38,324 bases of DNA from Nitrospirota bacterium (GCA_030638335.1 DAOWET010000001.1:1-38324); one strand, 5' to 3'; shown: positions 4,891 through 19,438, numbered from the stretch's first letter. The notes: a model not told the origin generated them from the letters alone. Translations and numbers: made by a program.

Positions 4891-4910
4891 CTAATTGCTT
4901 TGAGACGATC

Positions 4911-5013
4911 TTCGGGGCTGGATACAGCGCATATACTGCGCAATGGAGGACTCGTGGTATAGGGATACAACTTCGTCCTCCATTGCTTGTCTCTGCACTA
5001 TCCCAACCCCGAA
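4911..5013 (-). repeat. Structured hairpin element, copy A
   Basis: Long imperfect inverted repeat with perfect 12-bp arms at 4940-4951 and 4975-4986. On the minus strand the outer stem pairs fully using G-U pairs and one bulge. GAA/GA internal loop as in copies B and C. Confidence 0.8.
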
Positions 5014-5120
5014 TCTCTACGTCAGACGCGCGAACTTCCGCTGAACTCAGGAAAACTACTAATTAAAAACATTTCTATAACAATATGCTAAAGGGGTAAG
5101 GCCACTACAACACCCAGAGA

Positions 5121-5135
5121 AGTGCCCGTGGCACT
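5121..5135. repeat. Short REP-like palindrome (GCCACGGGC family)
   Basis: AGTGCC-CGT-GGCACT; related motifs at 5282, 19195 and 19325. Confidence 0.55.
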
Positions 5136-5281
5136 CTTTTAACTGGTGGCTGTCTGCCCCAACCGCATGCAATTCATCTTTTCCCTTTAAAAGAATCTTC
5201 TAATAAGGAATTAATGTTCAGGTTCTGTAGCGCATGAGATAAAACTGAACACGGTTTCTGATTCGTTCATATACAAGTAAG

Positions 5282-5302
5282 GGGCCACGGGCCCTTTTAT
5301 TT
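5282..5302 (+). repeat. Short REP-like palindrome GGGCCACGGGCCC with T-rich tail (possible weak terminator)
   Basis: Identical 13-mer at 19195-19207. Confidence 0.55.
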
Positions 5303-5335
5303 ATCTTTGCCGTAGGTTCGAATTATCGCAGACCC

Positions 5336-5443
5336 CCACGGTTTCTGATTTAGTGTAGATGCAAAGAAGAAAGTATGAAGGAGTACTTCTTCGTACTTCG
5401 AATGCTTTATTCTGCCGCAGATGCGCTGAATCAGGAAGCGTGG
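5336..5443 (+). repeat. Structured hairpin element, copy B
   Basis: 108-nt hairpin pairing on the plus strand through several G-U pairs, with GA/GA and GAA/GA internal loops; homologous to 19339-19436. Confidence 0.85.
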
Positions 5444-6181
5444 TTACTCTTCTTGGTAGCCGCAGGAGTAACACCCCCACTTCTCATACAACTCATACCA
5501 GGCAAGTTCTCCCCCGCACTGCGGGCACGGCTTCTGATCCGCTGATGCTTCGTCCGGCTCCTGCGTTTCAGCCACATCAAAATCCAGCGAACTCACAAGT
5601 GTCTCCATCTTCTCGTCAGACGGGGCTGAGGGCGCTGATTTGAGATTCTTGTGGTTAAGCTTGTCCTTGAAGGCCACCATTTCATCGTCGAGCATCCTGG
5701 CGGCCTCGTCCATCCTCTGCTCGGCCTTCTTGATCATGCTCTCGCCGTCCGTGGCCTCGGATTTGGCCTGCTCGTACTCGTCATTGAGCTGGCGCACCTC
5801 GTCATTGAGATCCTCTATCCGGGCCTTCAGCTCCTTTGCGCGCCTGGCCGAGTTGCTCATCTCATCCCTCTTTTCGTCAAGGGCTTGGGCGAATAGCTTC
5901 TGCTGTTTCTTGAGGGTTGTGCGCTGCTGCTCGGCAGAGGCCAGGATGTCGTCCTTGTCAAGGTCCGCGGCGTGCTCCATGGCCTTCAGGGCCGCGCTCA
6001 CGCGCTTGCCCTCGTCAGGGATCTCTCCACGGAAGGATTCCATCATCTTGATGAACTTCACGACCGTTCCGCCCGCCTTGGCCATCTCGCGCCTGAGGCG
6101 GTCAGCGATCTGCTCCCTGCTCAGCTCAAGTATGCCCGGCTTTTTGGCAGACAAGCTTTTCCTATCCCCGGATTTCCCCAT
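5444..6181 (-). CDS. Hypothetical coiled-coil protein with C-terminal Zn ribbon
   Basis: Long charged helical region, then CPQC-x13-CYSC at the C terminus; strong promoter directly upstream. Confidence 0.8.
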   Translation of the reverse strand: MGKSGDRKSLSAKKPGILELSREQIADRLRREMAKAGGTVVKFIKMMESFRGEIPDEGKRVSAALKAMEHAADLDKDDILASAEQQRTTLKKQQKLFAQALDEKRDEMSNSARRAKELKARIEDLNDEVRQLNDEYEQAKSEATDGESMIKKAEQRMDEAARMLDDEMVAFKDKLNHKNLKSAPSAPSDEKMETLVSSLDFDVAETQEPDEASADQKPCPQCGGELAWYELYEKWGCYSCGYQEE

Positions 6182-6215
6182 AAGTCATTATACCTTAAGA
6201 ATATTTTACCATCAA
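6182..6215 (-). promoter_or_regulatory. sigma70-like promoter (leaderless geometry)
   Basis: Minus strand TTGATG-17 nt-TATAAT-5 nt-ATG(6181). Confidence 0.65.
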
Positions 6216-6254
6216 GATGCTGGGCAATGTTATTTTATTTGCCCGATTGCCCGA

Positions 6255-6291
6255 TTGACAATACTGAGCCGCTATTGTTATAACAATTGCC
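6255..6291 (+). promoter_or_regulatory. ilvE promoter (leaderless geometry)
   Basis: TTGACA(6255-6260)-18 nt-TATAAC(6279-6284) with an upstream TG, then 7 nt to ATG 6292; no SD. Confidence 0.6.
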
Positions 6292-7206
6292 ATGTCCGTG
6301 AAGGCTGATAAGATATGGATGGACGGGAAACTCGTCAACTGGGACGACGCCAAGGTCCATGTCCTTACCCATACCCTGCACTACGGCCTGGGAGTGTTCG
6401 AGGGCATCCGCTGCTACGAGACCCCTGAGGGCCCGGCCATCTTCCGCCTTGACGAGCACGTGGAGCGCCTCATAAAGAGCGCGTCCATATTCCAGATGGA
6501 GATACCCTTCTCGCACACGGAGATCTGCGAGGCCATCAAGGTCACGGTTAAAGAGAACAAACTACAGGAATGCTACATCCGGCCCATCGCCTTCATAGGC
6601 GCGGGCGCAATGGGCCTTTACGCCAAAGAAAACCCCATCCAGCTCTCAATTGCCGCCTGGAACTGGGGCGCGTACCTTGGCGAGGACGGCATAAATAACG
6701 GCATAAAGGTAAAGACCTCTTCATTCATCCGGGGCCACGTGAACTCGAACATGACCATGGCCAAGGTATGCGGCTATTATGTAAACAGCCAGCTTGCAAA
6801 GAACGAGGCCATCTCCTGCGGGTATGACGAGGCCCTGCTTCTTGACACCGAGGGCTACGTGAGCGAGGGCAGCGGGGAGAACGTCTTCATAGAGCGCGGC
6901 GGAGCGCTCAAGACCACCCCGCTTACGAGCATCCTGGAGGGCATCACCCGCGCAAGCGTCATCACCATGGCGCATGACGAGGGCATAGAGGTCAGCCAGG
7001 AGCGTTTCACGCGCGACGAGGTCTACATATCCGACGAGGCATTCTTCACAGGCACTGCGGCGGAGATCACTCCCATTCGCGAGCTTGACGGGCGCACCAT
7101 CGGGTCAGGCAAACCAGGCCCCATCACCAAGAAGATTCAGTCCACCTTCTTCGACACAGTAAAAGGGAAAAACAGCAAATACAGCTCCTGGCTCTCCCAC
7201 ATTTAA
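6292..7206 (+). CDS. ilvE: Branched-chain amino acid aminotransferase
   Basis: [22 protein letters not shown] (PLP Lys), [15 protein letters not shown] and [11 protein letters not shown]. Confidence 0.97.
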
Positions 7207-7290
7207 GCCCGAAACACCCGCATACAACACCCCTGGCAGCATACTCCCTGGATCGAGTCCTGTCATGCCAATTCACTGGAATGAAACAAT

Positions 7291-7325
7291 AAAAATGGCC
7301 TCCGGCACACAGCCGGAGACCATTT
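7291..7325 (-). terminator. Rho-independent terminator, possibly bidirectional
   Basis: Minus strand AAATGGTCTCCGGC-TGTGT-GCCGGAGGCCATTTTT, lying between convergent genes. Confidence 0.75.
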
Positions 7326-7348
7326 GAAGTCTTCGCTATTTAAGGATA

Positions 7349-7873
7349 TTACTGTGCAGGAGCTTCCTTATCAGGGGCGGGCGCTGCCTCGGACTCCTGT
7401 GCCGGGGCATCAGCCGCAGGCTCTGCATCCGCGCTCTGTGCTTCCTGTGCCTGTACAGCCGGGGCATCTTCAACAGGCGCGGCCGATTCGCCCGCAACTG
7501 GCTTCAGCGCTGCAACTGCATCAAGGGCATCCAGCCTCAGGGAGCTGTCAGGATATTCCTTGAGGAACTCCTCAAAGGCCTTCAGGGAATCGGCATTGTC
7601 ACCCTGTACCGCCATGTTAAGGGCATCGTTGAACTTCTGGAGTTCCACCTCGTCGATCTCGATGACTTCCTTGCCCTTCCAGTAGACAGCGTCAGCTTCA
7701 TCAGAGGCCGCACCACGCACGCCTCCCACTGCCGTTGTCACTGATGCCTTTTTCTTCGGCGTGATCCCCTGAACCCTGCTTTTGAGGCTGCTCCAGAAGG
7801 ACTTGCCCGCGGCCATGCTCGTGGCAGGGACGAACAGGGATAATGCGATTATGAGAATAATTGCATGTTTCAT
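7349..7873 (-). CDS. Small secreted protein with a TPR-like helix pair and an Ala/Pro/Glu-rich tail
   Basis: Signal peptide MKHAIILIIALSLFVPATSMA; TTAVGGVRGA motif; FEEFLKEYPDS resembles YbgF/BamD-type TPRs; SD GGAGGTG upstream. Confidence 0.8.
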   Translation of the reverse strand: MKHAIILIIALSLFVPATSMAAGKSFWSSLKSRVQGITPKKKASVTTAVGGVRGAASDEADAVYWKGKEVIEIDEVELQKFNDALNMAVQGDNADSLKAFEEFLKEYPDSSLRLDALDAVAALKPVAGESAAPVEDAPAVQAQEAQSADAEPAADAPAQESEAAPAPDKEAPAQ

Positions 7874-7953
7874 GATACGTTCACCTCCAAGGTGTTCTCA
7901 AAAGCTGTTTCAGGGAACCATAGACATTTTCCCGTTTCCTATATTCTACCATG

Positions 7954-7984
7954 CCCCCATGGCCCCTGGAAGGGGCCATGGGGG
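7954..7984. repeat. Perfect 14-bp inverted repeat hairpin
   Basis: CCCCCATGGCCCCT-GGA-AGGGGCCATGGGGG, 13 nt after the stop of the large NHL gene. Confidence 0.75.
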
Positions 7985-7997
7985 TTTTAGAGTCATA

Positions 7998-10900
7998 TTA
8001 AATGGGGCCAAGCAGCTGGAGCGACATGCCCCTGAACTTGGTCGACACATGCGGGTCAAGCTCGTATGCCTTGGTAAAGGCCTCCTTGGCCTCCTTCTTC
8101 ATATCGAGCCTGATGTACGCTCTGCTCAGGTTGATCCAGATGTATGGGTCTTGCGGCTCCAGCGCCAGGGCGTCCTCATATGATTTGCGGGCCTTGCCAT
8201 ACATGCCGTCCATGAAATGCAGGTTGCCGAGGTTGTTGACAACCGAAGAGTTCCCAGGCTCAAGCTCATAGGCTTTTCCCAGGGATTTCATGGCCTCCTT
8301 GGTCTCCCCGCTCTCGGCAAAGACTATGCCCAACTGCAGGTACGCGTTAACGTCCTTGGGGTTGTCCTGGATCGCCTTGATAAAGCGCTTGCTGCGGAGC
8401 TTCACCCTGATCTGCCTGAGGTTCTGGAACTCCTTGTTGAACTTCTCCTCGATGCCCGCGCGGGTGACCTCTCCGGGCCGCCATTCCGATTCCGGAAGGT
8501 TCGCGGGCTTGAACATGGCCCAGGCATCGCGGAGGTCCATTATACCCACAAGCTCCTGAGGCTTCCACTTGTAGTACTTCCTGCTGCCTTCCTCCCACGC
8601 CTCCATGAAGGTCTTGCCCATGAGGGTGGCCTCTACCGGTACCCATACAGAGTCCTCGTACACAACGAAAAGGTTGTCGTGGGTGTCAGTGCCCAGAGCC
8701 TCTACCTTGCCCACCTCGAACATCATGAACATATGGCCCGGGATGTCCAGGATCTTTGTCCTTATGCCAAGGCTCTCAAGTGAAGCTGCGTATAGGGTCA
8801 CCAGGTCGTCGCAGTCGCCGCTCTTGCGCTTGAGGGTCTCTCGCGGGTACTGGAGGTAGTCCACCAGGTCAATATTGTTGGAGGTCTCCTGGTACGGGGT
8901 GCTCGGGTCAATTATGTATGTCATGCCCAGCACGCCAAGGGCGTCAAAGAACACGCTGCCGTAGAGCAGCGGGTCGCTGGTGTCCCTGTATTGCGTGATG
9001 ATGCCGCGGGTGAACTCCAGCACCACCGTGTCCTTTGTGGTGACAAAGGCGGCCATGCGCTCTCGCACGTCCCACTTCATCTTGTGCTTCTCAAAGACAT
9101 TGATAGCGTGGTTGGAGCTGTAGCTCCTGAGCTCCTGGTTGGCATAGTAGGAGACCGTTATCTCGGTCTGCACCGGGGTGTCCTCAGTGACCTTGAGTAT
9201 TTGGTTGTTGAACACTGCCTTCAGGTCCACCTCGACCTCGCCCCTGGGGGCAAGGTCCCTGACCTCGGTCTCCCATGGGAAGTCCATGAAGTCCTTGATC
9301 TTAAAAGCGACCTTCAGGCGGGCGATCTTGTCCATGGTGTTGTTCGTGATCTTTATACGCCCGACACCGTCGCTCTCGTAGTTCTTGTATGTGTTGGAGA
9401 ACAGGTCCTCCATCTTGATGATGTCCATCTCTATGGGAGGACGCGTGGCAACCAGGGTCTTGGTATCAATGGACACCTTGTCGCTCTCCAGTTCGTCGGA
9501 ACTCACGGCCGAGACAAAGAAGGTGTACTCGGAATCAGGCGATAGGCCACCGGCAATATAAGTCGTCTCCTCCGACCTTCCGGTCTCCACGAGTTTGCCG
9601 TCCTCCTGGCGGTAGATTGCGTAGTAGGCAATATGGCCGCCCCTAACAGGCTTCCATGACAGACTCACAGACCACTCCTGCGGCTCTACCGCAAGGTTCA
9701 GAGGTGCTGCGGCCGTATATTTGGCAGGTATGGCCTCAATGGAGGCGCTCAACTTGCCCTCGTTGCCCTCATCAGCCCGGGCGGACACGCGGTAATAGTA
9801 GGGCCTGTCAGGCTCCAGGTCGCGGTCCACATAGCTGTTGCCGCTCACCTCGGTGACCTTCTCATACGGGCCGGCGGCATCGTCAGACCGGTAGACAATA
9901 TATCCTACGACAAAAGACGCATCGCTCCTGTCCCAGAAGACATTGGCAGAGCGCGTTCCGCCACGCGCCCTGATCCCCCGCAACACAGGAGGCGTATACA
10001 CGTTCACAAGCTCCTGGACACGGTTACTGTCCGGGTCGGACACAAAGAGCCTTATGTTGTTCTTTGCAATCAAGGCCAGGGGCTTTACCATCTCGCCGTT
10101 GCCGCGGACCTTCTTGTCTCCGGGAGAACCGAATTCCCTGACATAGGCGCCCTGCTTGTCAAAGACCTTTATGGTGGGCCCGCCCTGGTCGAGCACCAAT
10201 ATCTCGTTGTCTGTCACGGTAAGGGCCACGGGCTTGTCGAAATATGAACCCTTCTCCCCGCGCTCTCCAAACTCCTTGATCATCATGCCGCTGGTGGCAA
10301 AGATCAGGACGGACTTCTTCTTGTCGTCGAGCACATAGAGCATGTCGTTGGAATCAAACTCCATGTCCGTAGGGCCCTGCAGCAGGTCGTCCGAGCCGCC
10401 TTTGCCAAGCACGCCTATGAACACCCCGTCGGAGCTGAAGGCCTGCACCCTCTTGCTTGCCTTGTCAGATATGAACACGTCACCCGAGCTTGAGACGACA
10501 ATATCGGATGGGCTCTTGAAATAGCCCTCCCTGCTGCCTGAACCGCCGAAGTGGAAGTCCACATCCAAGGAGTCGGGTTTCAGTTTGTATACGTTCTTCT
10601 TCTTGCCGTCAACGACCCAGAGACCTCCGTCATGTGCGACAGCCACCGCAACAGGCACGACCTTGTCAAGGGTGATCTTCTTAAGGAGCTTGCCGTCCTT
10701 TATTGCCAGGACAGCCTTTTCCTTCGTGTTTATCCCGTAGACGATCCCCTTCTTGGAATCCCACGCGAGAGTCTCTAAAGAGAAATCCTGGTCAGAGGCC
10801 CATACCACCGAGGTGGGAGGAGGCGCGTACTCCAGTTCCACCTCGCCGTTTTCCCTCTGCGGAAGGAATATCTGGATTATGCCGCGCTTGGGATCGGCCA

Positions 10901-11720
10901 CAAACACCTTGCCGTCCCTGGACACGTCCATTCCCGCAATGCTCTCGAACTGCGCCCGGCCCGTGCCCTTTGTGCCAAAGGCCTCCTGGAACCGGAAACC
11001 ATAATTGAATTTCTTGACGCTGAAGGTCTCCACATCGGACACAAAGATACCGTCCATGTCAAGGGCAAGTGAGGAGGGTTCTCTGATGCCCTTTATCCTC
11101 TCGATGTAGTCCCCGTTCTGACTGTAGACCTTGACGAACTCGTCCTGGACGTCTACGACATATATATATCCCCTGTGGTCTACAACCAGGTCCACGGGCT
11201 TTTTAAGTACCTCTTCGCCCTCGCCCCGGTTGCCAATGGAGCCAAGGTAGACGCCGTTTGGGCCTATGACCTGCACCCGCTTGTTTCCGGTGTCAGCGAC
11301 GTATATTATTCCCTTGTATACGAAAATGCCGTTAGGAGAGCTGAACTGGCGGGGCTTGCTGCCCTTTGAGCCAAAGGAGCTTATGAACTTGCCGTCCTTG
11401 CCAAAGACCGTTACCCTGCCAAGGCCCGCGTCCACCACATAGAGCGTGTCACCGTACAGCGCTATGCCGCGGGGCTCTTTTATTATTCCCTTCCATTTCT
11501 TGTCCTTGCCCCCGAGGAAGAACTTGATATTGCCGCTGGCGTCCATGACAGAGACCTTCTTGTTCTTCTGGGATGTGTATATGGTCCCGTCATCATCCAC
11601 CTCTATGAACAAAGGGTTTCCGGCAATGATCTCGCCCTCATAGCCAACCTTCGACATCATCGCCCAAGAGGTAAACGGTAGTGCCACAAGCAGAACAGCA
11701 ACCAGGAATAAACGTCTCAT
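7998..11720 (-). CDS. Large secreted NHL-repeat / fibronectin type III / transglutaminase-like / TPR protein
   Basis: Start placed at ATG 11720 (MRRLFLVAVLL signal peptide; G-rich SD). Two NHL blocks (e.g. IYVADTGNKRVQV), two FN3-like domains (YYYRVSA, LSPDSEYTFFVSAV), a SGDCDD/PGHMF/VPVEAT core and C-terminal TPRs. Confidence 0.85.
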   Translation of the reverse strand: MRRLFLVAVLLVALPFTSWAMMSKVGYEGEIIAGNPLFIEVDDDGTIYTSQKNKKVSVMDASGNIKFFLGGKDKKWKGIIKEPRGIALYGDTLYVVDAGLGRVTVFGKDGKFISSFGSKGSKPRQFSSPNGIFVYKGIIYVADTGNKRVQVIGPNGVYLGSIGNRGEGEEVLKKPVDLVVDHRGYIYVVDVQDEFVKVYSQNGDYIERIKGIREPSSLALDMDGIFVSDVETFSVKKFNYGFRFQEAFGTKGTGRAQFESIAGMDVSRDGKVFVADPKRGIIQIFLPQRENGEVELEYAPPPTSVVWASDQDFSLETLAWDSKKGIVYGINTKEKAVLAIKDGKLLKKITLDKVVPVAVAVAHDGGLWVVDGKKKNVYKLKPDSLDVDFHFGGSGSREGYFKSPSDIVVSSSGDVFISDKASKRVQAFSSDGVFIGVLGKGGSDDLLQGPTDMEFDSNDMLYVLDDKKKSVLIFATSGMMIKEFGERGEKGSYFDKPVALTVTDNEILVLDQGGPTIKVFDKQGAYVREFGSPGDKKVRGNGEMVKPLALIAKNNIRLFVSDPDSNRVQELVNVYTPPVLRGIRARGGTRSANVFWDRSDASFVVGYIVYRSDDAAGPYEKVTEVSGNSYVDRDLEPDRPYYYRVSARADEGNEGKLSASIEAIPAKYTAAAPLNLAVEPQEWSVSLSWKPVRGGHIAYYAIYRQEDGKLVETGRSEETTYIAGGLSPDSEYTFFVSAVSSDELESDKVSIDTKTLVATRPPIEMDIIKMEDLFSNTYKNYESDGVGRIKITNNTMDKIARLKVAFKIKDFMDFPWETEVRDLAPRGEVEVDLKAVFNNQILKVTEDTPVQTEITVSYYANQELRSYSSNHAINVFEKHKMKWDVRERMAAFVTTKDTVVLEFTRGIITQYRDTSDPLLYGSVFFDALGVLGMTYIIDPSTPYQETSNNIDLVDYLQYPRETLKRKSGDCDDLVTLYAASLESLGIRTKILDIPGHMFMMFEVGKVEALGTDTHDNLFVVYEDSVWVPVEATLMGKTFMEAWEEGSRKYYKWKPQELVGIMDLRDAWAMFKPANLPESEWRPGEVTRAGIEEKFNKEFQNLRQIRVKLRSKRFIKAIQDNPKDVNAYLQLGIVFAESGETKEAMKSLGKAYELEPGNSSVVNNLGNLHFMDGMYGKARKSYEDALALEPQDPYIWINLSRAYIRLDMKKEAKEAFTKAYELDPHVSTKFRGMSLQLLGPI

Positions 11721-11870
11721 GCGTGCACCCCCCCGATATTTTCTATATTGGTTCTCCATGTTGGGATATTACACCTGCCAAACACATCTCTATTGTCATT
11801 ATAGCAGAATTCCCTTGCCAGATAAATTAATAAAAATATGGTATAGAATATAGATATATATAGGTATTAT

Positions 11871-12329: not shown

Positions 12330-12479
12330 CGGATAGCAAACAACCCTTTGTAACTTAAGGTTTTTCCAATGCATAAGGGGAGGTTGTGCCGCATGGCCTG
12401 AAGCTCAACCCTGAGGGGTGTCTTCTCCATTAACCGGCCCGGTAACTGGCCCGGCAATTATGTTACAATTGGTATTCTT

Positions 12480-12920
12480 ATGGAAGAAGTGGGCGTAGTC
12501 ACCAAAGTGGACGGCATCACCGCCCACGTCTCGGTCGAGCGCAAAACCGCTTGTGAGCACTGCACTGCGGGTACGTGCAGCCTTACGGCGGATGACGCGA
12601 GATTAGAGGCCATAAACGAGGCCGGAGCAGTTGCGGGCCAGCGTGTGCGCGTCAGCCTGCGGGATTATACATATGTCTCCGGGTCTTTGTTCTTCTATGG
12701 GGTGCCGGCCCTGGCGCTGATCATGGGCGCTCTTCTGGGCCTGGGAGTATTCAGCGAATGGTTCCCGGGCAAGGATCCGGAGGCCGTAGCAGCAGTGTCA
12801 GCCTTCGTGTGCATGGTGCTGTCGCTGGCAGTGGTGAAACTCTGGAGCCGGAAGGCAGAGCGCAAGAGCGCTTACCAGCCGGTTGTAGTGGAAATCCTTG
12901 ACAATGGTGGAAGTTCATAA
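12480..12920 (+). CDS. RseC/MucC family membrane protein
   Basis: MEEVGVV, ACEHCTAGTC cysteine motif, YGVP and two TM helices. Confidence 0.85.
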   Translation: MEEVGVVTKVDGITAHVSVERKTACEHCTAGTCSLTADDARLEAINEAGAVAGQRVRVSLRDYTYVSGSLFFYGVPALALIMGALLGLGVFSEWFPGKDPEAVAAVSAFVCMVLSLAVVKLWSRKAERKSAYQPVVVEILDNGGSS

Positions 12921-12955
12921 ACTGCAATGATACATTGAGAGGGGGACATACCTGA

Positions 12956-15049
12956 ATGCCGATGATCGAAGTCGAGAATATTCGCAACATTGTGGTTACC
13001 GGCCACGCCAAGGCCGGCAAAACCTCACTTGTAGAGGCCATTCTCCACAACTCCGGCGCCATCAACAGGCTCGGGAAGGTAGAGGAAGGCACCACCATCA
13101 CTGATTATGAACCCGAGGAGATAGACCGTCAGATAAGCCTGTCCTCGGCCCTGGCCTTCTGCCAGTGGAAGGACCACAGGATAAACATCATAGACACCCC
13201 GGGGTTCATCAACTTCCTGGAGGACACCAAGGGTTCCATGCGTGCCGCTGACGGCGTGGTGCTCATGATAAGCGCGCTTTCCGGCATCAAGGGAGAGACC
13301 GAGAAGATATGGGGCTTTGCCACGGATTTCAACCTTCCGGTGGTTGCCTTTGTAAACAAGATGGACAAGGAGTCCGCTGACTTTCAGAACGCGCTGGACG
13401 GGATAAAGAGCCTTCTGAACACCGAGCCCCTGCCCTTGCAGATGCCCATTGGCGAGGCCCAGGGTTTCAACGGTGTTGTAGACCTTCTGGACATGAAGGC
13501 CTATACATACGCGGACGGAAAGGCCACTGAGGGCGAGGTCCCCGCCGATATAAAGGACAGGGCCGATGAGCTCAGGAACGTCATGATCGAGCGCGTGGCC
13601 GAGGCTGACGACGAGCTGCTGGAGAAATACCTCGAAGGCGGTGAGCTCAGCCGGGATGAGATCGTAAATGGCATAAAGGCCGGGACCATTGCCAAACAGT
13701 TCGTGCCGGTCACATGCGGCGCTCCCAACCTTAACATCGGCATAAAGGAGCTCATGGACGCCGTAACCATGTGCCTGCCCTCCCCTGTGGAGATGGCCGG
13801 GGCCAACCCGATAAAGGGCATAAACCCCAAGGACGACTCCGAGGCAGAGCGCAAGCCCTCGGAGGACGAGCCCTTCTCAGCCTATGTGTTCAAGACCGTA
13901 GCCGACCCCTTTTCGGGAAAACTCTCATTTTTCAGGATACTCTCAGGCAAACTCGCGCCTGATTCTTCCGTAATGAACGCATCCACCGATAACAAGGAGC
14001 GCATAGGCCAGGTCTTCTACCTCCAGGGGAAAAAGCACGAAAATGCCGAAACACTCACAGCTGGAGAGATCGCTGTTGTAGCCAAGCTCAAAGGGACATC
14101 CACTGGAGACACCCTGTGTGACGCCTCAGACCCCATACGCTATGAGACCGTAAAGTTCGCCGAGCCCCTTATCTCATACGCCATTGCCCCAAAGAGCAAG
14201 GGCGACGCGGACAAGGTGGGCTCAGGGCTGCATCGCATACTCGAAGAGGACTCGTCCCTTGACTTCCACATGGACGAAGAGGCCCATGAGATGATTCTGG
14301 CCGGCATGGGCCAGCTCCACCTGGAGGTCACGCTGGACAAGCTCAAACGGAAGTTCGGCGTTGAGGTGGAGATGAAGTCGCCGAAGATCCCCTATCGCGA
14401 GACCATCACCATAGCAGCCGATGCCAAGCACAAACACAAGAAGCAGTCCGGCGGCAAAGGCCAGTATGGCGAGTGCGCTATCAGGGTTGAACCGCTACCG
14501 CGTGGCAGCGAATACGAGTTCGAGAACAAGATCGTAGGAGGCGCCATCCCCCGCGGCTTCATACCCGCCGTTGACAAGGGCATTCAGAAAGCAATAAATG
14601 AGGGCATCTACGCCGGGTACAAGATGGTAGACCTGAAAGTATCTCTCTATGACGGCTCTTACCACGCAGTGGACTCCTCGGAGATGGCCTTCAAGATAGC
14701 CGGCTCCATGGCTATAAAAAAGGCCGTGGAACAGGCCAAGCCCATTGTTCTGGAACCTGTCATGAACGTGAACATAACAGTGCCGGACGAGTTCCTTGGC
14801 ACTGTTATAGGCGACCTCAACGGCAGGCGCGGCAAGGTACAGGGCATGGACCAGGCGCCAAACTCAACGAACCAGAAGGTCTCGGCAGCGGTCCCCATGG
14901 CCGAGATGCTCACATACGCAAACCAGCTTCAGAGCATGACAGCCGGACGCGGCATTTACACGATGGAATTCTCCCACTACGATCCTCTTCCCAAGCAGCT
15001 CACGCAGAGACTGCTGGAGGAGAAAGCAGCCCAGGAGGAGGAGAAGTAG
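12956..15049 (+). CDS. fusA: Elongation factor G paralog (EF-G2 / EFG II type)
   Basis: Full EF-G domain layout (HKKQSGGKGQYG, GSYHAVDSSEMAF) with divergent GTPase motifs GHAKAGKTS, EIDRQISL and DTPGFINF; not in the str operon. Confidence 0.9.
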   Translation: MPMIEVENIRNIVVTGHAKAGKTSLVEAILHNSGAINRLGKVEEGTTITDYEPEEIDRQISLSSALAFCQWKDHRINIIDTPGFINFLEDTKGSMRAADGVVLMISALSGIKGETEKIWGFATDFNLPVVAFVNKMDKESADFQNALDGIKSLLNTEPLPLQMPIGEAQGFNGVVDLLDMKAYTYADGKATEGEVPADIKDRADELRNVMIERVAEADDELLEKYLEGGELSRDEIVNGIKAGTIAKQFVPVTCGAPNLNIGIKELMDAVTMCLPSPVEMAGANPIKGINPKDDSEAERKPSEDEPFSAYVFKTVADPFSGKLSFFRILSGKLAPDSSVMNASTDNKERIGQVFYLQGKKHENAETLTAGEIAVVAKLKGTSTGDTLCDASDPIRYETVKFAEPLISYAIAPKSKGDADKVGSGLHRILEEDSSLDFHMDEEAHEMILAGMGQLHLEVTLDKLKRKFGVEVEMKSPKIPYRETITIAADAKHKHKKQSGGKGQYGECAIRVEPLPRGSEYEFENKIVGGAIPRGFIPAVDKGIQKAINEGIYAGYKMVDLKVSLYDGSYHAVDSSEMAFKIAGSMAIKKAVEQAKPIVLEPVMNVNITVPDEFLGTVIGDLNGRRGKVQGMDQAPNSTNQKVSAAVPMAEMLTYANQLQSMTAGRGIYTMEFSHYDPLPKQLTQRLLEEKAAQEEEK

Positions 15050-15050
15050 G

Positions 15051-15827
15051 ATGCTTCAGCGCACATGCCTTATTGCCATAGCGCTTATGGCACTGTGCGC
15101 GCCGGCGCTTGCGGCCCAGACGGCACAGGCGCCCCGGACAGACGAGACGGCCCAGCCATCCCGGATGGATGAAATGACCGGAATGACCGGGGGCGTGCTT
15201 GCAAACAGCACCACGCCGCTGCTGGAGGAGGACATTGACGCGATAATTGCAAACTCCGTCCCTCCTCCCCTTACAGAACCCGTGCGAGTAAGGAGCGGCA
15301 TGCTCTCGGTCAAGCTCGAAAGCGCCTCCTTTGGCCTTACGCTTGAAGAGATAGGCAGGCAGGCGGGCTTTGAGGCGATCATCACACCGGAGGTCGCAAG
15401 CAAGGAGCTGAGCACAACGTTCCGTGACATGGAACTGCAAAAGGGCATCCAGCGCCTGCTCTCGCTCATCAGCCACCGGAACTTCTTCATCTACTACGGC
15501 GCGAACGATTCCATAACGAGGATAGAGGTATACGGCACGGGCACGGTCCAGAAGCCCGGCAAGGGGCGGCAGACCTATACGCCCTCAACAAGCCCCGCAA
15601 GGAGCCGCTCAGGCAGGAGGGTTGTGACACCTTCGACCACATTTAAGAGGCCGAGCGTTTCACGCCGCACCGTGCCGGCCCGCGAGCCCGCAAGGACAAC
15701 TCCTCCGGTCACGAGGGTGTCGCCTGAGAGCAGGACGGATAATGCCGATGGCGATGACGTGGAGGTGCCATATATCGTGCCCCAGCAGGAGCCGCAATAC
15801 GTACCGCCCTACAATAGAAGACGGTAA
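15051..15827 (+). CDS. Secreted protein with STN/secretin-N0-like domain and disordered Pro/Arg/Thr tail
   Basis: Signal peptide; LSVKLESASFGLTLEEIGRQAGF...LSTTFRDMELQKGIQRLL pattern; starts 1 nt after the fusA paralog stop. Confidence 0.65.
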   Translation: MLQRTCLIAIALMALCAPALAAQTAQAPRTDETAQPSRMDEMTGMTGGVLANSTTPLLEEDIDAIIANSVPPPLTEPVRVRSGMLSVKLESASFGLTLEEIGRQAGFEAIITPEVASKELSTTFRDMELQKGIQRLLSLISHRNFFIYYGANDSITRIEVYGTGTVQKPGKGRQTYTPSTSPARSRSGRRVVTPSTTFKRPSVSRRTVPAREPARTTPPVTRVSPESRTDNADGDDVEVPYIVPQQEPQYVPPYNRRR

Positions 15828-15876
15828 GAGGATATGAAATACAGACCGGAGAGCACTGAAAGGACCACCCGAGACG

Positions 15877-18681
15877 ATGGACCCCAAAGACTACAAGGAC
15901 ACCCTTAACCTCCCCTCAACAAGCTTCCCCATGAAGGCAAACCTCCCAAACCGAGAGCCCGAGATGCTGAAGCAATGGGAAGAGGACGGTCTGTATGAAA
16001 AAATGCTCAAGCGCAACGAGGGCAAAGACACATACGTGCTGCACGACGGCCCTCCCTATGCCAACGGGAACATCCATATCGGCCACGCGCTGAACAAGAT
16101 ACTCAAGGACATCATAGTCAAATACAAATCCATGACAGGCCACTATACGCCCTATGTGCCGGGATGGGACTGCCACGGCCTGCCCATCGAGCACCAGGTG
16201 GACAAGAAGCTGGGCAAGAAAAAACGCGAGATAAGCATAGCCGACAAGCGTCTCCTGTGCAGGCAGTACGCGGATAAGTTCGTGGACGTGCAGCGCGAGG
16301 AGTTCAAGCGCCTCGGTGTGCTTGGAGACTGGGACAACCCGTACATAACCATGAGCTTTGATTACGAGGGCGCGATTGTAAAGGAATTCCTCGAGTTCTA
16401 CAAAAAGGGCTACGCATACCTGGGCAAGAAACCCGTGCACTGGTGCCCCTCATGCGTTACCGCGCTTGCGGAGGCAGAGGTGGAGCACGCGGATAAAACT
16501 TCGCCCTCGGTGTTCGTTAAGTTCAAGCTAGAAGCAAAAGAATCTTCTAATAAACTAAATCTGCCTGCTGGCAAAGAAGCTTTTATTGTTATCTGGACCA
16601 CTACTCCATGGACGCTTCCGGCAAACCTTGCGCTAGCCGTAGGAAACAACATTGAATATGCAGCAGTCCTTAACGAAAAGAAGGACGAATTCATAATCGT
16701 GGCAAAAGACCTTGTCTCAAAGCTCCATGAAAAGGGAGTCCTGCCAACGGATAATATATACAGGACTTTCCCTGGCTCAGACCTTGTAGAAATGGAAGCA
16801 TCACATCCTTTCATAGACAGGAAATCAAAGATAATTGACGCATATTTTGTCTCAACCGAAGAGGGTTCGGGAATTGTCCACATAGCTCCCGGCCACGGTC
16901 AGGACGACTACCAGGCCGGCCTCGCCCACGGACTTGAGATACTTGCCCCGGTAAACGATTACGGCAAGTTCGAGGGAAGCGGAGTGGAGGAGATAGAGAA
17001 CCAGTTCGTCTTCAAGGCCAACGATACCATCATAGAAATACTTAAAACAAAAAACGCCCTGCTTTTGAGCGAGGACTACCCGCACTCCTACCCCCACTGC
17101 TGGCGATGCAAGAAGCCGGTCATCTTCCGGGCCACGGAGCAGTGGTTCATCTCCATGGAGCATGAGGGCCTGAGGGAAAAGAGCCTCAAGGAAGTGGAAA
17201 AGACCCGCTGGATACCCGAGTGGGGACAGGACCGCATCCACGGCATGATCGAGGGCCGGCCGGACTGGTGCATATCCCGCCAGCGCTCATGGGGCGTGCC
17301 CATAGCGGTGCTCAAATGCACGTCCTGCAAAGAGCTTGTAAGGGATGACCGGGTAAACGAGATAATTGTCAAGGAGTTCACAGAGCATGGCGCGGACGTA
17401 TGGTATACAAAAGGCGCTGGCGCCTTTATGCCCGAGGGGTTCAAGTGCAAATGCGGCTCAGGGGAGTTCGAGAAAGAGACGGACATACTTGACGTATGGT
17501 TCGATTCGGGCGTGAGCTATGCGGCCACGTTAATACCTGAGCGCGGTTTTCCCAAGCGCGACCCAAGTGAGCCCCCCGCGGACATGTACCTTGAGGGCTC
17601 AGACCAGCACAGGGGATGGTTCCAGAGTTCCTTGCTCGCATCCGTTGGCACACGTGGACACGCCCCATACAAGACCGTGCTCACCCACGGCTATACCGTG
17701 GACGGCAAGGGCAAGAAAATGTCCAAGAGCCAGGGCAACGTGGTGGCCCCACAGGACGTGATCAAGATGACCGGGGCTGACATACTGCGCCTCTGGGTCT
17801 CTGCCGAGGACTATCGCGGGGACGTGCGGATCTCAAACGAGATACTGGCCCGCCTTACAGAGGCATATAGAAAGATAAGAAACACGTCGAAATACCTGCT
17901 CGGGAACCTCCACGATTTTGACGGCGGCGATTATTCATCTGACCTGCTGGAGATAGACCGATGGGCAATGAGCAGTCTACAGCATCTTATAAAGAACGTG
18001 AACTCGGCTTACGAGAACTACACCTTCCACGAGGTCTACCACCGTCTGCACCACTTCTGCATAGTGGACATGAGCAACCTCTACCTCGACATTCTAAAGG
18101 ACAGGCTCTATACCTTCAAGGCTGACTCAAAGGAGCGCCGCGCGGCGCAATGGGTGCTGAACGAGATACTCATGAGCATGACCCGCCTCATGGCCCCGGT
18201 GCTCTCCTTCACCGCTGAGGAGATATGGCAACACATTGAGAACACACCATCGGAAAGCGTGTTACTGACCGACATGCCCGCGCCCCGCGACGAGTTCATT
18301 GACGACGAGCTTGAGGCCCGGTGGGTGAGTATTCAGTCCGTGCGTGATGAGGCGAACAAGGCCCTTGAGCTAAAGCGCGCTGAGAAGTTCATCGGAAACT
18401 CCCTTGAGGCCAAGGTAACGATACATACCAGCGACAGCGGGCTGCGCGAACTCCTTGAAGCCCATGCCGCGGACCTCCCCACCATCTTCATCGTCTCGCA
18501 GGCCGGTGTCACCTCGGAGGGAGAGGGTACTTACAGGAGCGAAGAGATTGCCGGGCTCTCCATCTCCGTGGAAAAGGCCGACGGCGAGAAATGCGCCCGG
18601 TGCTGGAACCGCAGCCTGAGCGTAGGCACAATCACCGGGGCGCCGGATATCTGCGAGCGCTGTAACAAGGCTGTTGCATGA
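15877..18681 (+). CDS. ileS: Isoleucine--tRNA ligase (type 1)
   Basis: DGPPYANGNIHIGH, PGWDCHGLPIE, WTTTPWTLP, KMSKS and C-terminal Zn finger CARCW...CERC. Confidence 0.98.
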   Translation: MDPKDYKDTLNLPSTSFPMKANLPNREPEMLKQWEEDGLYEKMLKRNEGKDTYVLHDGPPYANGNIHIGHALNKILKDIIVKYKSMTGHYTPYVPGWDCHGLPIEHQVDKKLGKKKREISIADKRLLCRQYADKFVDVQREEFKRLGVLGDWDNPYITMSFDYEGAIVKEFLEFYKKGYAYLGKKPVHWCPSCVTALAEAEVEHADKTSPSVFVKFKLEAKESSNKLNLPAGKEAFIVIWTTTPWTLPANLALAVGNNIEYAAVLNEKKDEFIIVAKDLVSKLHEKGVLPTDNIYRTFPGSDLVEMEASHPFIDRKSKIIDAYFVSTEEGSGIVHIAPGHGQDDYQAGLAHGLEILAPVNDYGKFEGSGVEEIENQFVFKANDTIIEILKTKNALLLSEDYPHSYPHCWRCKKPVIFRATEQWFISMEHEGLREKSLKEVEKTRWIPEWGQDRIHGMIEGRPDWCISRQRSWGVPIAVLKCTSCKELVRDDRVNEIIVKEFTEHGADVWYTKGAGAFMPEGFKCKCGSGEFEKETDILDVWFDSGVSYAATLIPERGFPKRDPSEPPADMYLEGSDQHRGWFQSSLLASVGTRGHAPYKTVLTHGYTVDGKGKKMSKSQGNVVAPQDVIKMTGADILRLWVSAEDYRGDVRISNEILARLTEAYRKIRNTSKYLLGNLHDFDGGDYSSDLLEIDRWAMSSLQHLIKNVNSAYENYTFHEVYHRLHHFCIVDMSNLYLDILKDRLYTFKADSKERRAAQWVLNEILMSMTRLMAPVLSFTAEEIWQHIENTPSESVLLTDMPAPRDEFIDDELEARWVSIQSVRDEANKALELKRAEKFIGNSLEAKVTIHTSDSGLRELLEAHAADLPTIFIVSQAGVTSEGEGTYRSEEIAGLSISVEKADGEKCARCWNRSLSVGTITGAPDICERCNKAVA

Positions 18682-19178
18682 GGGGAAAGGCCCTACTCGT
18701 TGCTGCCACGGTTATAGTAGTGACAGCGCTTGACCTTGTGACCAAACACCTGGCCGCAACTCGCATAAGCCATTATGAGCCCATCGAGGTCCTGCCGTTT
18801 TTCAACCTCGTGAACGTGCAGAACAGGGGCGCGGCCTTTGGGATGTTCTCGGCCCTTGGAAGCTGGTTCTTCATCGCCATAAGCCTCGCAGCCATAGCCT
18901 TCATCATATACCTGCTGGTCAAGACGGACGAGAGCCCCTTGGCACTGGCCCTCATAATATCCGGGGCGCTTGGCAACCTTGCCGACCGCCTGTTATTTGG
19001 CTATGTAAGGGATTTTCTAGACATACATGTGGGAGAGCACCACTGGCCCGCCTTCAACCTGGCCGACTCCGCCCTTACCGTTGGGCTTGCGCTTATTATC
19101 ATCCTTCCACTGATCCACGGCTTCAGGGACAAAAAAGAGGCCGGGCCTTCAGAGCCTTCAAAACCGGGCACGCAATAA
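18678..19178 (+). CDS. lspA: Lipoprotein signal peptidase II
   Basis: DLVTK, NRGAAFG, GALGNLADR, VRDF and FNLAD; overlaps the ileS stop (ATGA). Confidence 0.96.
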   Translation: MRGKALLVAATVIVVTALDLVTKHLAATRISHYEPIEVLPFFNLVNVQNRGAAFGMFSALGSWFFIAISLAAIAFIIYLLVKTDESPLALALIISGALGNLADRLLFGYVRDFLDIHVGEHHWPAFNLADSALTVGLALIIILPLIHGFRDKKEAGPSEPSKPGTQ

Positions 19179-19194
19179 AAAACTCCCTGCCGCA

Positions 19195-19207
19195 GGGCCA
19201 CGGGCCC
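19195..19207 (+). repeat. Short REP-like palindrome GGGCCACGGGCCC
   Basis: Identical to 5282-5294. Confidence 0.55.
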
Positions 19208-19324
19208 ATTTTAACCGGAGGCTTCCGCCCCGACCGTATTCAGGATATGCAACGTAGGACCTGATCTTGTATTGAAGGTGTTTATTTAGGAGGATGCAGA
19301 TCGGGTCGACTCGACCTATTACGG

Positions 19325-19340
19325 GGTGCCCGTTGGCACC
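19325..19340. repeat. Short REP-like palindrome GGTGCC-CGTT-GGCACC
   Basis: Near-identical to 5121-5135; abuts hairpin element C. Confidence 0.55.
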
Positions 19341-19436
19341 TGATTTGCTGTAGCTGGTAGGAAGAAAGCATGAAGGCGTATAAACATACGTCGAATGCTT
19401 TATTCCGCCGCAGATGCAGTAAACTCAGGAAGCGTG
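19339..19436 (+). repeat. Structured hairpin element, copy C
   Basis: Homologous to 5336-5443 (shared TCGAATGCTTTATTCyGCCGCAGATGC...TCAGGAAGCGTG) with compensatory stem changes. Confidence 0.85.
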
Positions 19437-19438
19437 AG

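What the first reader, a model, noticed from the sequence alone, without database searches (positions are those of the whole stretch)
4911..19436. Family of ~100-nt structured hairpin elements with covariation, each antisense to and abutting a gene 3' end
Seen: three elements, A (4911-5013, minus), B (5336-5443, plus) and C (19339-19436, plus), share one architecture: outer stem ending tgYa, a GA..GA-type loop, a short stem, a middle stem, a GAA/GA internal loop and a 7-bp apical stem. B reads aaagtat-GAA-ggagtac-loop-gtacttc-GA-atgcttt; C reads aaagcat-GAA-ggcgtat-loop-atacgtc-GA-atgcttt; A reads gcaatggaggac-GAA-gttgtat-loop-ataccac-GA-gtcctccattgc. B and C differ by compensatory changes (agaa/ttct vs ggaa/ttcc; tttagtgta/tgcgctgaa vs tttgctgta/tgcagtaaa). 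A has largely different stem sequence but keeps the loops. Most non-Watson-Crick stem positions are G-U on one strand only, so one single strand appears to be under selection to fold. In all three cases that strand is antisense to the adjacent gene and ends 0-20 nt from its stop (argS, the 5444 gene, ilvN). Inference: a structure-conserved ncRNA or ssDNA mobile/recognition element carrying protein-binding loops. From memory, the core resembles the GAGGCGTAC...GTACGTYGA palindromic repeats of Nitrospira and deltaproteobacterial genomes, for which I know no assigned function.
Basis: partly seen in the sequence, partly recalled or inferred. Interest (0 to 1): 0.8.

Follow-up and report, generated by a model that had tools for sequence, protein, structure and literature searches.

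The report
Conserved hairpin core of IS1380-type MITEs
The three hairpins are copies of a roughly 104-base structured core carried by small non-autonomous transposons that IS1380-type transposases move, a core that keeps its fold on one strand in bacteria of many phyla and has multiplied to about 200 copies in this genome.

Summary
A, B and C fold far better on one strand than on its complement, and each abuts a gene's 3' end antisense to it. They belong to a family of 196 copies in this 2.78 Mb draft genome. In 141 of 148 full-length copies the same strand folds better, and covariation is strong.

An exact motif scan plus a covariance model found the same 104-nt hairpin ("R1") in metagenome-assembled genomes (MAGs) titled as many phyla. 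There, and in about 9 copies in this genome, R1 is the left internal module of a 230-290 bp element with 13-17 bp terminal inverted repeats (TIRs) and 4-bp target-site duplications (TSDs). Autonomous 1.6 kb IS1380-family elements carry the same TIRs but no R1. In a relative, one such element splits an IS1380 transposase gene, flanked by a 4-bp duplication.

[quoted passage not shown] A, B and C are copies without TIRs, set in mosaic repeat clusters.

What R1 does is inferred, not shown. The best guess is a strand-specific RNA structure. No Rfam family and no paper I found describes it.

The parts
4904..5023 (-). Element A: R1 hairpin (core 4911-5013) with an extended outer stem; 'type 1' variant, no TIRs
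   Evidence: Fold -68.2 kcal/mol against -51.4 for the complement. The covariance model scores 85.1 bits at 4911-5013.
5024..5104 (-). Conserved ~75-80 nt module 5' of type-1 R1 copies on the element strand
   Evidence: It is shared by about 40 type-1 copies in the flank listings. Its role is unknown.
5121..5135 (+). Small GC hairpin plus T-run (terminator-like); itself a repeated module
   Evidence: Terminator scan: 5 sites found in 4850-5500 against 0.5 expected. Similar hairpins recur beside TIRs elsewhere in the genome.
5245..5297 (+). Truncated 5' half of an R1 copy fused to a terminator-like hairpin (5279-5297)
   Evidence: A 14-nt exact match to the start of B at 5250-5263. The same half-R1 plus hairpin arrangement is seen upstream of other copies. 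Terminator scan.
5336..5443 (+). Element B: R1 hairpin, 'type 3', abutting the stop of ORF 5444-6181 (minus strand)
   Evidence: The covariance model scores 95.2 bits at 5338-5442. Fold -56.0 against -27.5. Contig word depth is 293 here against about 10-20 in the flanks of run X1.
19195..19332 (+). A second, unrelated repeat family directly upstream of C
   Evidence: Query positions 496-654 of window 18700-19900 match 15 or more other places in G000 at 70-87% identity.
19333..19436 (+). Element C: R1 hairpin, 'type 3', 2 nt from the ilvN stop
   Evidence: The covariance model scores 76.4 bits. Fold -43.4 against -27.0. In the closest relatives shown (G010, G007) ilvN is followed by an ordinary GC hairpin plus T-run.
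3241..4890 (+). argS, the gene abutted by A
   Evidence: TIGR00456, 444.7 bits.
5444..6181 (-). Unnamed 245-aa ORF abutted by B
   Evidence: ORF list. No NCBIfam family at E<=1e-20.
19439..19924 (-). ilvN, the gene abutted by C
   Evidence: NF008864, 225.5 bits.

Best explanation
[quoted passage not shown] These are mobilised in trans by IS1380-family (piggyBac-related, recalled) transposases.

**The intact element.**
- It is 230-290 bp long.
- Its order is left TIR (13-17 bp, starting CCC/CCT), R1, a short junction, a second variable palindrome (P3), right TIR.
- It is flanked by a 4-bp AT-rich target duplication, often CTAG, TTAG, TTAA or ATAG.

**In this genome.** The family has expanded to about 200 R1 copies. 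Only about 9 are intact MITEs. The rest, including A, B and C, are R1 modules without TIRs, recombined with other small repeat modules into mosaic clusters that fill intergenic regions at gene 3' ends.

**How it likely works (inferred).** R1 is kept foldable on one strand only, through G-U pairs and conserved GA/GA, GC/AA and GAA/GA internal loops, across lineages whose TIRs have diverged. It is therefore under selection of its own. My best guess is that it acts in RNA, as a strong one-directional structure in transcripts that enter the element.

**Why it sits antisense at stop codons (inferred).**
- Insertion goes into stop-codon-like tetranucleotides at gene ends.
- Selection removes copies whose strongly folding strand, and the co-oriented terminator modules, would lie in the sense transcript of co-directional genes.
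For: **Family, strand asymmetry and covariation in this genome**
- 196 copies.
- The model strand folds better in 141 of 148 full-length copies, mean -49.1 against -34.6 kcal/mol.
- Covariation is well above the shuffle and slide controls.
- G-U cells outnumber A-C cells 239 to 49.

**Across phyla**
- All 80 fetched loci match the model, 76 of 81 matches over all 104 positions, at 44.6-96.1 bits and GC 34-65%.
- On that alignment 83.6% of cells pair against 62.1% in shuffles. Covariation is 0.545 against 0.160, and 0.07-0.11 when slid.
- R1 is strand-asymmetric in 40 of 40 loci; P3 is not (24 of 40).

**MITE anatomy**
- TIRs and P3 are visible in the flank listings.
- 19 of 46 loci have perfect 4-bp direct repeats at the TIR edges, against 1-3 of 46 in four offset controls.
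- In G004, an IS1380 transposase reading frame is split by one complete element flanked by ATAA on both sides.

**Parent insertion sequence**
- 27 of 35 analysable metagenome loci hold 1.57-1.83 kb elements. Their TIRs (CCCG[CG][AT]TATTTCA...) match the MITE TIRs of G000, G004 and Bin_338, and they show CTAG/TTAG/TTAA-type flanks.
- Four of their ORFs score 397-431 bits on NF033539, whose cut-off is 180.
- In G046 a transposase fragment is preceded by that genome's MITE TIR, 14 of 16 bases.

**Context in this genome**
- 129 of 157 copies have the 3'-side gene on the opposite strand, at a median gap of about 10 nt.
- Between co-directional genes the split is 55 to 15 (p=1.7e-6). Convergent intergenic regions are enriched (chi-square p=1e-21).
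- Plus-strand terminator-like hairpins lie upstream of B.

**Patchy distribution**
- 6 of 41 genomes, this one and its relatives, have matches.
Against: - A, B and C themselves have no recognisable TIRs or target duplications. The 16-mer TIR pattern with up to 3 mismatches gave 4 window hits against 2.6 expected, and none lies near them. Their membership therefore rests on the shared R1 core, and how TIR-less copies multiplied is unexplained.
- No IS1380 transposase was found in G000 (92% complete, 300 contigs), in the complete genome G041, or in G002, G012, G042 and G045.
- R1 is absent from all 80 autonomous IS1380 loci at E<=1. It is therefore not a remnant of the parent IS, and its origin is unknown.
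- The RNA-level role is not shown. No RNA run holds the locus.
- No sigma-70-like promoter was found in 4850-5500.
- T-tracts after the hairpin are not enriched in the forward direction: 3.2 against 2.6 T per 10 nt, n=58, p=0.13.
- The asymmetry also holds with DNA energy parameters, in 136 of 148 copies.
- In other phyla the orientation rule is weak: 38 of 63.
- Gene calls in G000 come from my own crude ORF scorer.
- Copies within a genome are related, so shuffle controls overstate significance.
Confidence: 0.65

Rival explanations
1. R1 copies are independently transcribed small RNA genes. In this view the conserved tandem-GA and GAA/GA loops bind a protein or act in trans, and the transposon is only their vehicle.
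For: Loop nucleotides are conserved and the stems covary across phyla. The fold is specific to one strand. Type-1 copies share a conserved ~75-nt 5' module and a pyrimidine-rich 3' tail, which could serve as promoter and terminator.
Against: No promoter-like site was found. No RNA data exist for the locus. The flanking genes share no family: 142 ORFs were scanned. No candidate partner protein was identified. About 200 near-redundant genes per genome is unusual for an sRNA.
Confidence: 0.12
2. R1 acts as single-stranded or extruded DNA. Hairpin formation by R1 and P3 would bring the two TIRs together for the transposase. Alternatively, the orientation of R1 is set by replication, so that the weakly folding strand lies on the lagging-strand template.
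For: The asymmetry persists with DNA energy parameters, in 136 of 148 copies. The intact element is TIR, hairpin, hairpin, TIR. The R1 forward strand lies on the C-rich strand: flanks are negative in 127 of 171 copies, and a coding-symmetrised skew is negative in 91 of 122, p=5e-8.
Against: The DNA-level asymmetry is small: median -4.75 kcal/mol against -15 as RNA. P3 shows no asymmetry. Autonomous IS1380 elements transpose without R1 (0 of 80 loci). In the same genome, genes show no strand bias against that skew (688 of 1414), so the skew may not report replication direction. Replichores cannot be defined in a 300-contig draft.
Confidence: 0.13
3. R1 has been taken over by the host as a gene-end insulator. 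Its strongly folding strand would face transcription converging on the 3' end of the abutted gene, stopping or processing antisense read-through.
For: 129 of 157 copies are oriented this way, at a median of about 10 nt from the stop. Copies are enriched in convergent intergenic regions. In the window, A and B guard argS and the convergent ORF from each other's read-through, and C replaces the ordinary ilvN terminator seen in the closest relatives.
Against: 55 copies lie between co-directional genes, where no convergent transcript is expected. The orientation rule is weak in other phyla. There is no T-tract enrichment. Most related genomes do without the element: 35 of 41 searched had none.
Confidence: 0.08
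4. The copies are REP/BIME-type elements moved by a RAYT (Y1) transposase, or integron attC-like recombination sites.
For: They sit at gene 3' ends in mosaic clusters, with many short tandem arrays. Like attC bottom strands, the folding strand is antisense to the upstream gene.
Against: No Y1_Tnp (PF01797) match in G000, while the same search rang in 6 of 14 control genomes. Intact copies have TIRs and 4-bp duplications, which neither class has. No RYYYAAC/GTTRRRY boxes are visible in the alignments (inspection only). The neighbours are housekeeping genes, not cassette arrays.
Confidence: 0.02

Closest known systems
Bacterial MITEs in general (Correia/NEMIS, ERIC/IRU, RUP, Nezha)
   Same: They are short, carry no ORF and have TIRs plus a target duplication. 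They occur in many copies at gene ends, and their transcripts are predicted to fold into long hairpins. Their TIRs are shared with an autonomous IS. These general features are taken from passages of reviews PMC10969869 and PMC3184786. Orientation-dependent effects of ERIC and Correia on mRNA are recalled, not read.
   Different: Here the internal hairpin, not the TIRs, is the conserved part across phyla. It keeps specific internal loops and covaries, and most copies in this genome have lost the TIRs altogether.
IS1380 family insertion sequences (relatives of eukaryotic piggyBac; that relationship and the family's 'CC ends, 4-5 bp duplication' are recalled)
   Same: They share the TIR sequence, the 4-bp YTAR-like duplications and the end dinucleotide. 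Their transposases score above the NF033539 cut-off.
   Different: The autonomous elements are about 1.6 kb and contain no R1 (0 of 80 loci). The MITE interior is therefore not a deletion remnant of them.
Chunjie MITE of Geobacter uraniireducens
   Same: It is a deltaproteobacterial MITE of 178-235 bp with many partial copies lacking TIRs or direct repeats (passages).
   Different: Chunjie has 21-bp TIRs and 9-bp direct repeats and is A+T-rich (PMC3184786 passage). Here the TIRs are 13-17 bp and the duplication is 4 bp. The original paper (PMC2516098) is not held, so the sequences were not compared.
REP/BIME elements with RAYT transposases
   Same: They are extragenic, sit at gene 3' ends and form mosaic clusters of palindromes.
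   Different: REPs are 20-40 nt with no TIRs or target duplication and need a Y1 transposase, and none is found here.
Integron attC sites
   Same: They are imperfect palindromes of about 60-140 nt that function as one folded strand, which is antisense to the upstream ORF and starts at its stop codon (recalled).
   Different: No R''/R' boxes are present. Copies are dispersed next to housekeeping genes rather than in cassette arrays. TIRs and target duplications are present in intact copies.
Rfam families
   Same: None reaches any threshold.
   Different: The window at gathering threshold gave 0 hits. Region 4850-5500 at E<=10 gave only two chance-level hits. Ten cross-phylum loci at E<=0.1 gave only Acido-Lenti-1-like hits elsewhere in L073.

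Membership tests
MITE (non-autonomous DDE transposon) | Terminal inverted repeats | tested here: met
   Met for intact copies: 46 of the cross-phylum loci have arms matching at 10 or more of 12 positions; about 9 G000 copies do; the G004 copy has 21-nt arms at 86%. Not met for A, B and C themselves.
MITE (non-autonomous DDE transposon) | Target-site duplication of fixed length | tested here: met
   19 of 46 loci have a perfect 4-bp duplication against 1-3 of 46 in offset controls. ATAA flanks the insertion in the G004 transposase gene. ATAG flanks two G000 copies.
MITE (non-autonomous DDE transposon) | Small size and no coding capacity | tested here: met
   TIR-to-TIR distance is 230-290 bp. 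Stop codons occur in all frames by inspection. No ORF test was run.
MITE (non-autonomous DDE transposon) | TIRs shared with an autonomous IS | tested here: met
   27 of 35 IS1380 loci carry the same TIR core as the G000, G004 and Bin_338 MITEs. The G046 IS end matches that genome's MITE TIR at 14 of 16 bases.
MITE (non-autonomous DDE transposon) | Evidence of insertion (filled versus empty site) | tested here: met
   An IS1380 transposase profile is split at positions 222/223 by the element. Weak support at A: one X1 contig (depth 3.2) joins 4889 to 5188.
IS1380-mobilised element | Cognate transposase resident in the same genome | tested here: inconclusive
   None found in G000, G041, G002, G012, G042 or G045. 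One disrupted copy in G004, a fragment in G046, and weak hits in G043 and G044. Draft MAGs often lose IS copies, but G041 is a closed chromosome.
REP/RAYT | Y1 (HUH) transposase gene in the genome | tested here: not met
   PF01797: 0 matches in G000, while the control search rang in 6 of 14 genomes.
Integron attC | R''/R' core sites (RYYYAAC...GTTRRRY) and cassette arrays next to intI | tested here: not met
   The motifs are not present at the hairpin bases in alignments A2 and A5 (inspection only). The flanks are housekeeping genes. The intI gene was not searched.
Any Rfam RNA family | Covariance-model match | tested here: not met
Structured functional RNA (new class) | Transcription of the folding strand | not testable with these tools
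   No RNA run holds the locus.
Structured functional RNA (new class) | Covariation beyond what relatedness gives | tested here: met
   the observed score exceeds both the shuffles and the slid-partner controls, which preserve relatedness. R-scape was not available.

The most novel reading that the evidence does not exclude
R1 is a previously undescribed class of structured nucleic acid, most likely an RNA, that rides on IS1380-type MITEs. It has been kept under purifying selection for fold and for three purine-rich internal loops across at least eight phyla, while the TIRs around it were exchanged. On this reading it gives the element, or its host, a real function. Candidates are a one-directional transcription insulator at gene ends, a protein-binding RNA, or an aid to transposition. 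It would not be inert palindromic filler.
Probability: 0.3. Interest if true: 0.75.

Novelty: new variant of a known kind. Interest (0 to 1): 0.55.

Why it matters
MITEs are usually treated as lineage-specific junk defined by their TIRs. Here the reverse holds. The TIRs differ between lineages and track local IS1380 relatives. A 104-nt internal hairpin keeps its loops and base-pairing, on one strand only, from Bacteroidota to Desulfobacterota.

That pattern points to a function for transposon cargo that nobody has assigned. It also gives a defined and testable motif: a covariance model, a cognate transposase family, and TIRs.

There is a practical side too. The family makes up a visible share of the intergenic DNA in this genome. 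It probably causes many of the 300 contig breaks, since 17 copies lie within 150 nt of contig ends. It also reshapes the 3' untranslated regions of housekeeping genes such as argS and ilvN.

Tried and rejected
- **Rfam.** No family matched.
- **RAYT/Y1 transposase.** None in G000.
- **R1 as a remnant of the parent IS.** Rejected: 0 matches at E<=1 in 80 IS1380 loci covering 196 kb.
- **An intact IS with MITE TIRs in a closed carrier genome (G041).** Only four TIR pairs 258-269 bp apart were found, and none at IS length.
- **TIRs around the disrupted IS1380 copy of G004.** None were clear (one search was a strand slip that I corrected).
- **TIRs beside A, B and C.** Not found.
- **Forward-strand terminator idea.** T-tracts are not enriched and there is no promoter-like site.
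- **Automated TSD count.** My first script over-extended the palindromes and was wrong. It was replaced by the controlled count.
- **A shared neighbouring gene.** 142 flanking ORFs show no common Pfam family.
- **Expression.** No RNA holder is listed for window 3300-7300. The contigs laid can show neither strand nor RNA ends.
- **Literature.** Searches returned no paper describing this element.
  - Two 2026 preprints on non-coding mining contain none of my MITE or transposon terms ('find' passages only).
  - Chunjie differs in TIR and direct-repeat length.
  - The original Chunjie paper is not held.
  - The IS1380 mentions in PMC4133298 and PMC11578231 are unrelated.
  - Supplements were not consulted.
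- **Chance expectation for the scan pattern.** The figure of about 0.06 is my own arithmetic, not a tool result.

Full report
**1.

The three elements are at the stated coordinates and align over about 105 columns. Each folds into a long rod-like hairpin far more stable than shuffled sequence, and clearly more stable than its own complement:
- A: -60.6 against -43.7 kcal/mol.
- B: -56.0 against -27.5 kcal/mol.
- C: -43.4 against -27.0 kcal/mol.
- The z-scores are -9.6, -9.0 and -6.5.

A's stem extends to 4904-5023. The abutted genes are argS, an unnamed 245-aa ORF and ilvN. In each case the well-folding strand is antisense to the gene and ends 0-20 nt from its stop.

**2. It is a very large family in this genome.**

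The window is contig C240 of a 2.78 Mb, 300-contig draft.
- Four rounds of nhmmer converge on 196 non-overlapping copies, and none is hit on both strands. Seventeen copies lie within 150 nt of a contig end.
- Of 148 full-length copies, 141 fold better on the model strand: mean -49.1 against -34.6 kcal/mol, median difference -15. With DNA energy parameters the figure is 136 of 148.
- I aligned 42 diverse copies (A3) and wrote a 41-pair structure derived from B's minimum-free-energy fold.
  - 80.6% of cells pair, against 66.4% in shuffles.
  - 31 pairs change on both sides.
  - The covariation score is 0.457 against 0.225 +/- 0.009 (0 of 500 shuffles reach it), and 0.09-0.21 when partners are slid by 1-3 columns.
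  - RNAalifold on its own found 25 of 31 pairs with double changes.
- G-U cells outnumber A-C cells 239 to 49, so one strand is being kept foldable.
- Model R1, built on this alignment, finds 135 matches at E<=0.001 among the 150 candidates scored.
- The unpaired motifs that stay constant are:
  - GYAGAU on both arms, forming a symmetric GA/GA loop.
  - GAAG on the 5' arm opposite C-GA on the 3' arm, forming a GAA/GA loop.
  - In most lineages, GGCG opposite CAAC, forming a GC/AA loop.

**3. Orientation is non-random in this genome.**

I used a home-made ORF scorer that calls 2554 genes with 85% coding density.
- Of the 196 copies, 4 lie inside called genes and 35 lack a neighbour on one side.
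- Of the remaining 157, 129 have the gene on the element's 3' side on the opposite strand, at a median gap of about 10 nt. The gap on the 5' side is 224-289 nt.
- Between co-directional genes the split is 55 antisense to 15 sense (p=1.7e-6).
- Convergent intergenic regions are over-represented and divergent ones depleted. Convergent, divergent and tandem counts are 74, 13 and 70, against a background of 205, 274 and 668 (chi-square p=1e-21).
- Genes further away show no orientation bias.
- The rule holds for every subtype.
- Copies 5-63 nt apart are always on the same strand. Copies 100-330 nt apart are mostly arranged minus then plus, as A and B are.

**4. The hairpin is not lineage-specific.**

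Among this genome and 40 relatives, only 6 have matches: G000; G004 with 33; G002 with 2; and three genomes of one genus in another family with 7-13 weaker hits.

I then scanned one genome per prokaryote species for a strict exact pattern of the conserved loop nucleotides. It matches 33 times in G000. By my own arithmetic, fewer than one match is expected by chance across the whole collection. The MAG titles name Deltaproteobacteria/Desulfobacterales/Thermodesulfobacteriota, Aminicenantes, Lentisphaerae, Verrucomicrobiota, Kiritimatiellia, Chitinophagaceae/Saprospiraceae, Fibrobacterales, Eubacteriales/Oscillospiraceae and Legionellales, and several genomes have 5-9 hits each.
- All 80 fetched loci match R1. 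Of 81 matches, 76 cover all 104 positions. Scores are 44.6-96.1 bits and GC is 34-65%.
- On that model-fitted alignment 83.6% of cells pair against 62.1% in shuffles. Covariation is 0.545 against 0.160, and 0.07-0.11 when slid.
- The 142 flanking ORFs belong to unrelated housekeeping families.
- No Rfam family matches.

**5. What the hairpin belongs to.**

Listing the flanks of the cross-phylum copies and of about 9 'type 2' copies in G000 shows a larger unit:
- a 13-17 bp terminal repeat beginning CCC/CCT (AGGG in the Bacteroidota set);
- R1 immediately inside it;
- a short CCC-GNA-GGG junction;
- a second, variable palindrome (P3, 50-140 nt);
- the inverted terminal repeat.

In G000 the left end reads CCCGCTTATTGCA and the right end TGAAATATGCGGG.

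The evidence that this unit is a mobile element is as follows.
- With six symmetric boundary choices allowed, 19 of 46 loci have a perfect 4-bp direct repeat at the TIR edges, against 1-3 of 46 in four offset controls. Typical repeats are TTTA, CTAA, ATAG, TTAG and AAGT.
- R1 is strand-asymmetric in 40 of 40 of these elements. P3 is not: 24 of 40, -23.4 against -22.2 kcal/mol.
- In relative G004 an IS1380-family transposase frame is interrupted between profile positions 222 and 223 by one complete element flanked by ATAA on both sides. This is a direct insertion event.

**6. The mobiliser.**

- In MAG G046 an IS1380 transposase fragment at a contig end is preceded by a terminus that matches that genome's MITE TIR at 14 of 16 bases.
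- I used that fragment to fetch 80 related metagenome loci. Of the 35 with enough flank, 27 show 1.57-1.83 kb elements. Their TIRs (CCCG[CG][AT]TATTTCA...) match the MITE TIRs of G000, G004 and G046, and they show CTAG/TTAG/TTAA-type flanks.
- Four of their ORFs score 397-431 bits on NF033539, whose cut-off is 180.
- None of the 80 loci contains R1 at E<=1.

The elements are therefore MITEs that borrow IS1380-family ends, and R1 is their own cargo rather than a deletion remnant. It is from memory, not from a call, that IS1380 elements have CC ends, make 4-5 bp duplications and are related to piggyBac.

**7. What A, B and C are.**

None has a recognisable TIR nearby. They are R1 modules embedded in a mosaic.
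- A carries a conserved ~75-nt 5' module shared by about 40 'type 1' copies.
- B is preceded by a truncated half-R1 fused to a terminator-like hairpin, and there are two plus-strand terminator-like hairpins between A and B.
- C follows a second, unrelated repeat family.
- The whole 554-nt argS to ORF spacer is repeat DNA.
- In the closest relatives shown (G010, G007), ilvN is followed by an ordinary GC hairpin plus T-run where C now sits.
- In run X1, contig depth spikes at A (74) and B (294) against about 10-20 in the flanks. One low-depth contig joins 4889 to 5188, which is a possible strain without the A unit.
- How TIR-less modules reached about 185 copies is not explained. Recombination among MITE copies and decay of the ends are the obvious candidates.

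**8. How it most likely works.**

*Shown:*
- It is mobile-element DNA with IS1380-type ends.
- Fold and loops are conserved on one strand across phyla.
- Orientation and position are non-random in this genome.

*Inferred:*
- TIRs differ between lineages while R1 is held constant with compensatory changes, so R1 must matter either to the element's spread or to its being tolerated.
- The G-U excess and the three-fold larger asymmetry with RNA than with DNA parameters favour an RNA-level role.
- The 4-bp targets resemble stop codons on one or both strands, which explains insertion exactly at gene ends.
- Terminator-like hairpins of the kind seen on the plus strand upstream of B lie upstream of several other copies on the element strand. 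I therefore read the 55:15 bias between co-directional genes as loss of insertions that would place the strong hairpin and these terminators in the sense transcript.

*Against this reading:*
- No promoter was found, T-tracts are not enriched, and there are no RNA data.
- A DNA-level or replication-linked role stays open. The R1 forward strand lies on the C-rich strand in 91 of 122 copies after cancelling coding skew (p=5e-8). But genes in this genome show no bias against that same skew (688 of 1414), so its meaning is unclear.

**9. Comparison with what is known, and novelty.**

- The element is a MITE by every defining feature tested on intact copies.
- It is not REP/RAYT.
- It is not attC-like in sequence or context.
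- It is not Chunjie, which has 21-bp TIRs and 9-bp repeats (review passage).
- It is not in Rfam.
- Five literature searches returned no description of it. That covers open-access papers and bioRxiv only.

I file it as a new variant of a known kind: an IS1380-type MITE family whose defining, cross-phylum conserved part is a structured internal hairpin of unknown function.

Noticed in passing
window 1955-2030 and 3203-3278: A 76-nt direct repeat at 75% identity. The second copy covers the region just upstream of argS and its first ~12 codons; the first copy lies between the 756-1958 and 2088-3176 ORFs. It looks like a duplicated promoter/5' region.
   Followed up: no
window 19195-19332: A second dispersed repeat family of ~125-145 nt, directly upstream of C. 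It has 15 or more other copies in G000 at 70-87% identity, several in tandem (for example C267, C168, C125).
   Followed up: no
window 5121-5135 and 5279-5297; also G000 C286, C8, C41, C133: Small GC hairpins of the GGGGCC-ACG-GGCCCC type followed by TTTTA/TTTAAACTGG are themselves repeated modules. They are often chained after a MITE TIR, or inserted in the apical loop of R1 as in L007.
   Followed up: partly
G000 C237:~8100-8330, C286, C26, C299 (flanks of type-1 copies): A terminator-like hairpin, ACAAGGCCGCC...GGCGGCCTTGT, encloses one to three tandem copies of a ~20-nt unit (TCGGATCGAGTCTKACGACC). This is another repeat family next to R1 copies.
   Followed up: no
G004:C45:13669-15138 (L184): An IS1380-family transposase gene is disrupted by a complete R1-MITE with an ATAA duplication. 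It also carries a short tandem duplication and a TAG further on, so it is a dead IS copy.
   Followed up: yes
G000 genome-wide: A degenerate 13-mer for the MITE TIR, with up to 1 substitution, matches 151 times. Many matches are solo or enclose other module contents 70-560 bp apart. No shuffle control was run. This suggests a wider MITE superfamily with exchangeable interiors.
   Followed up: partly
G000 genome-wide: The R1 forward strand lies preferentially on the C-rich strand: 127 of 171 flanks, and 91 of 122 after cancelling coding skew. Genes show no bias against that skew.
   Followed up: partly
L073 (Saprospiraceae MAG) 1594-1638, 1775-1806, 2410-2454: Three sub-threshold matches to Rfam Acido-Lenti-1 (31.6-35.5 bits, gathering score 37) near an R1-MITE. 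This may be another small repeated hairpin family in that genome.
   Followed up: no
G000 type-3 copies: In 18 of 55 type-3 copies abutting an opposite-strand gene, the called stop codon lies 1-13 nt inside the R1 match. In those cases the element may supply the last codons and the stop of the gene.
   Followed up: no
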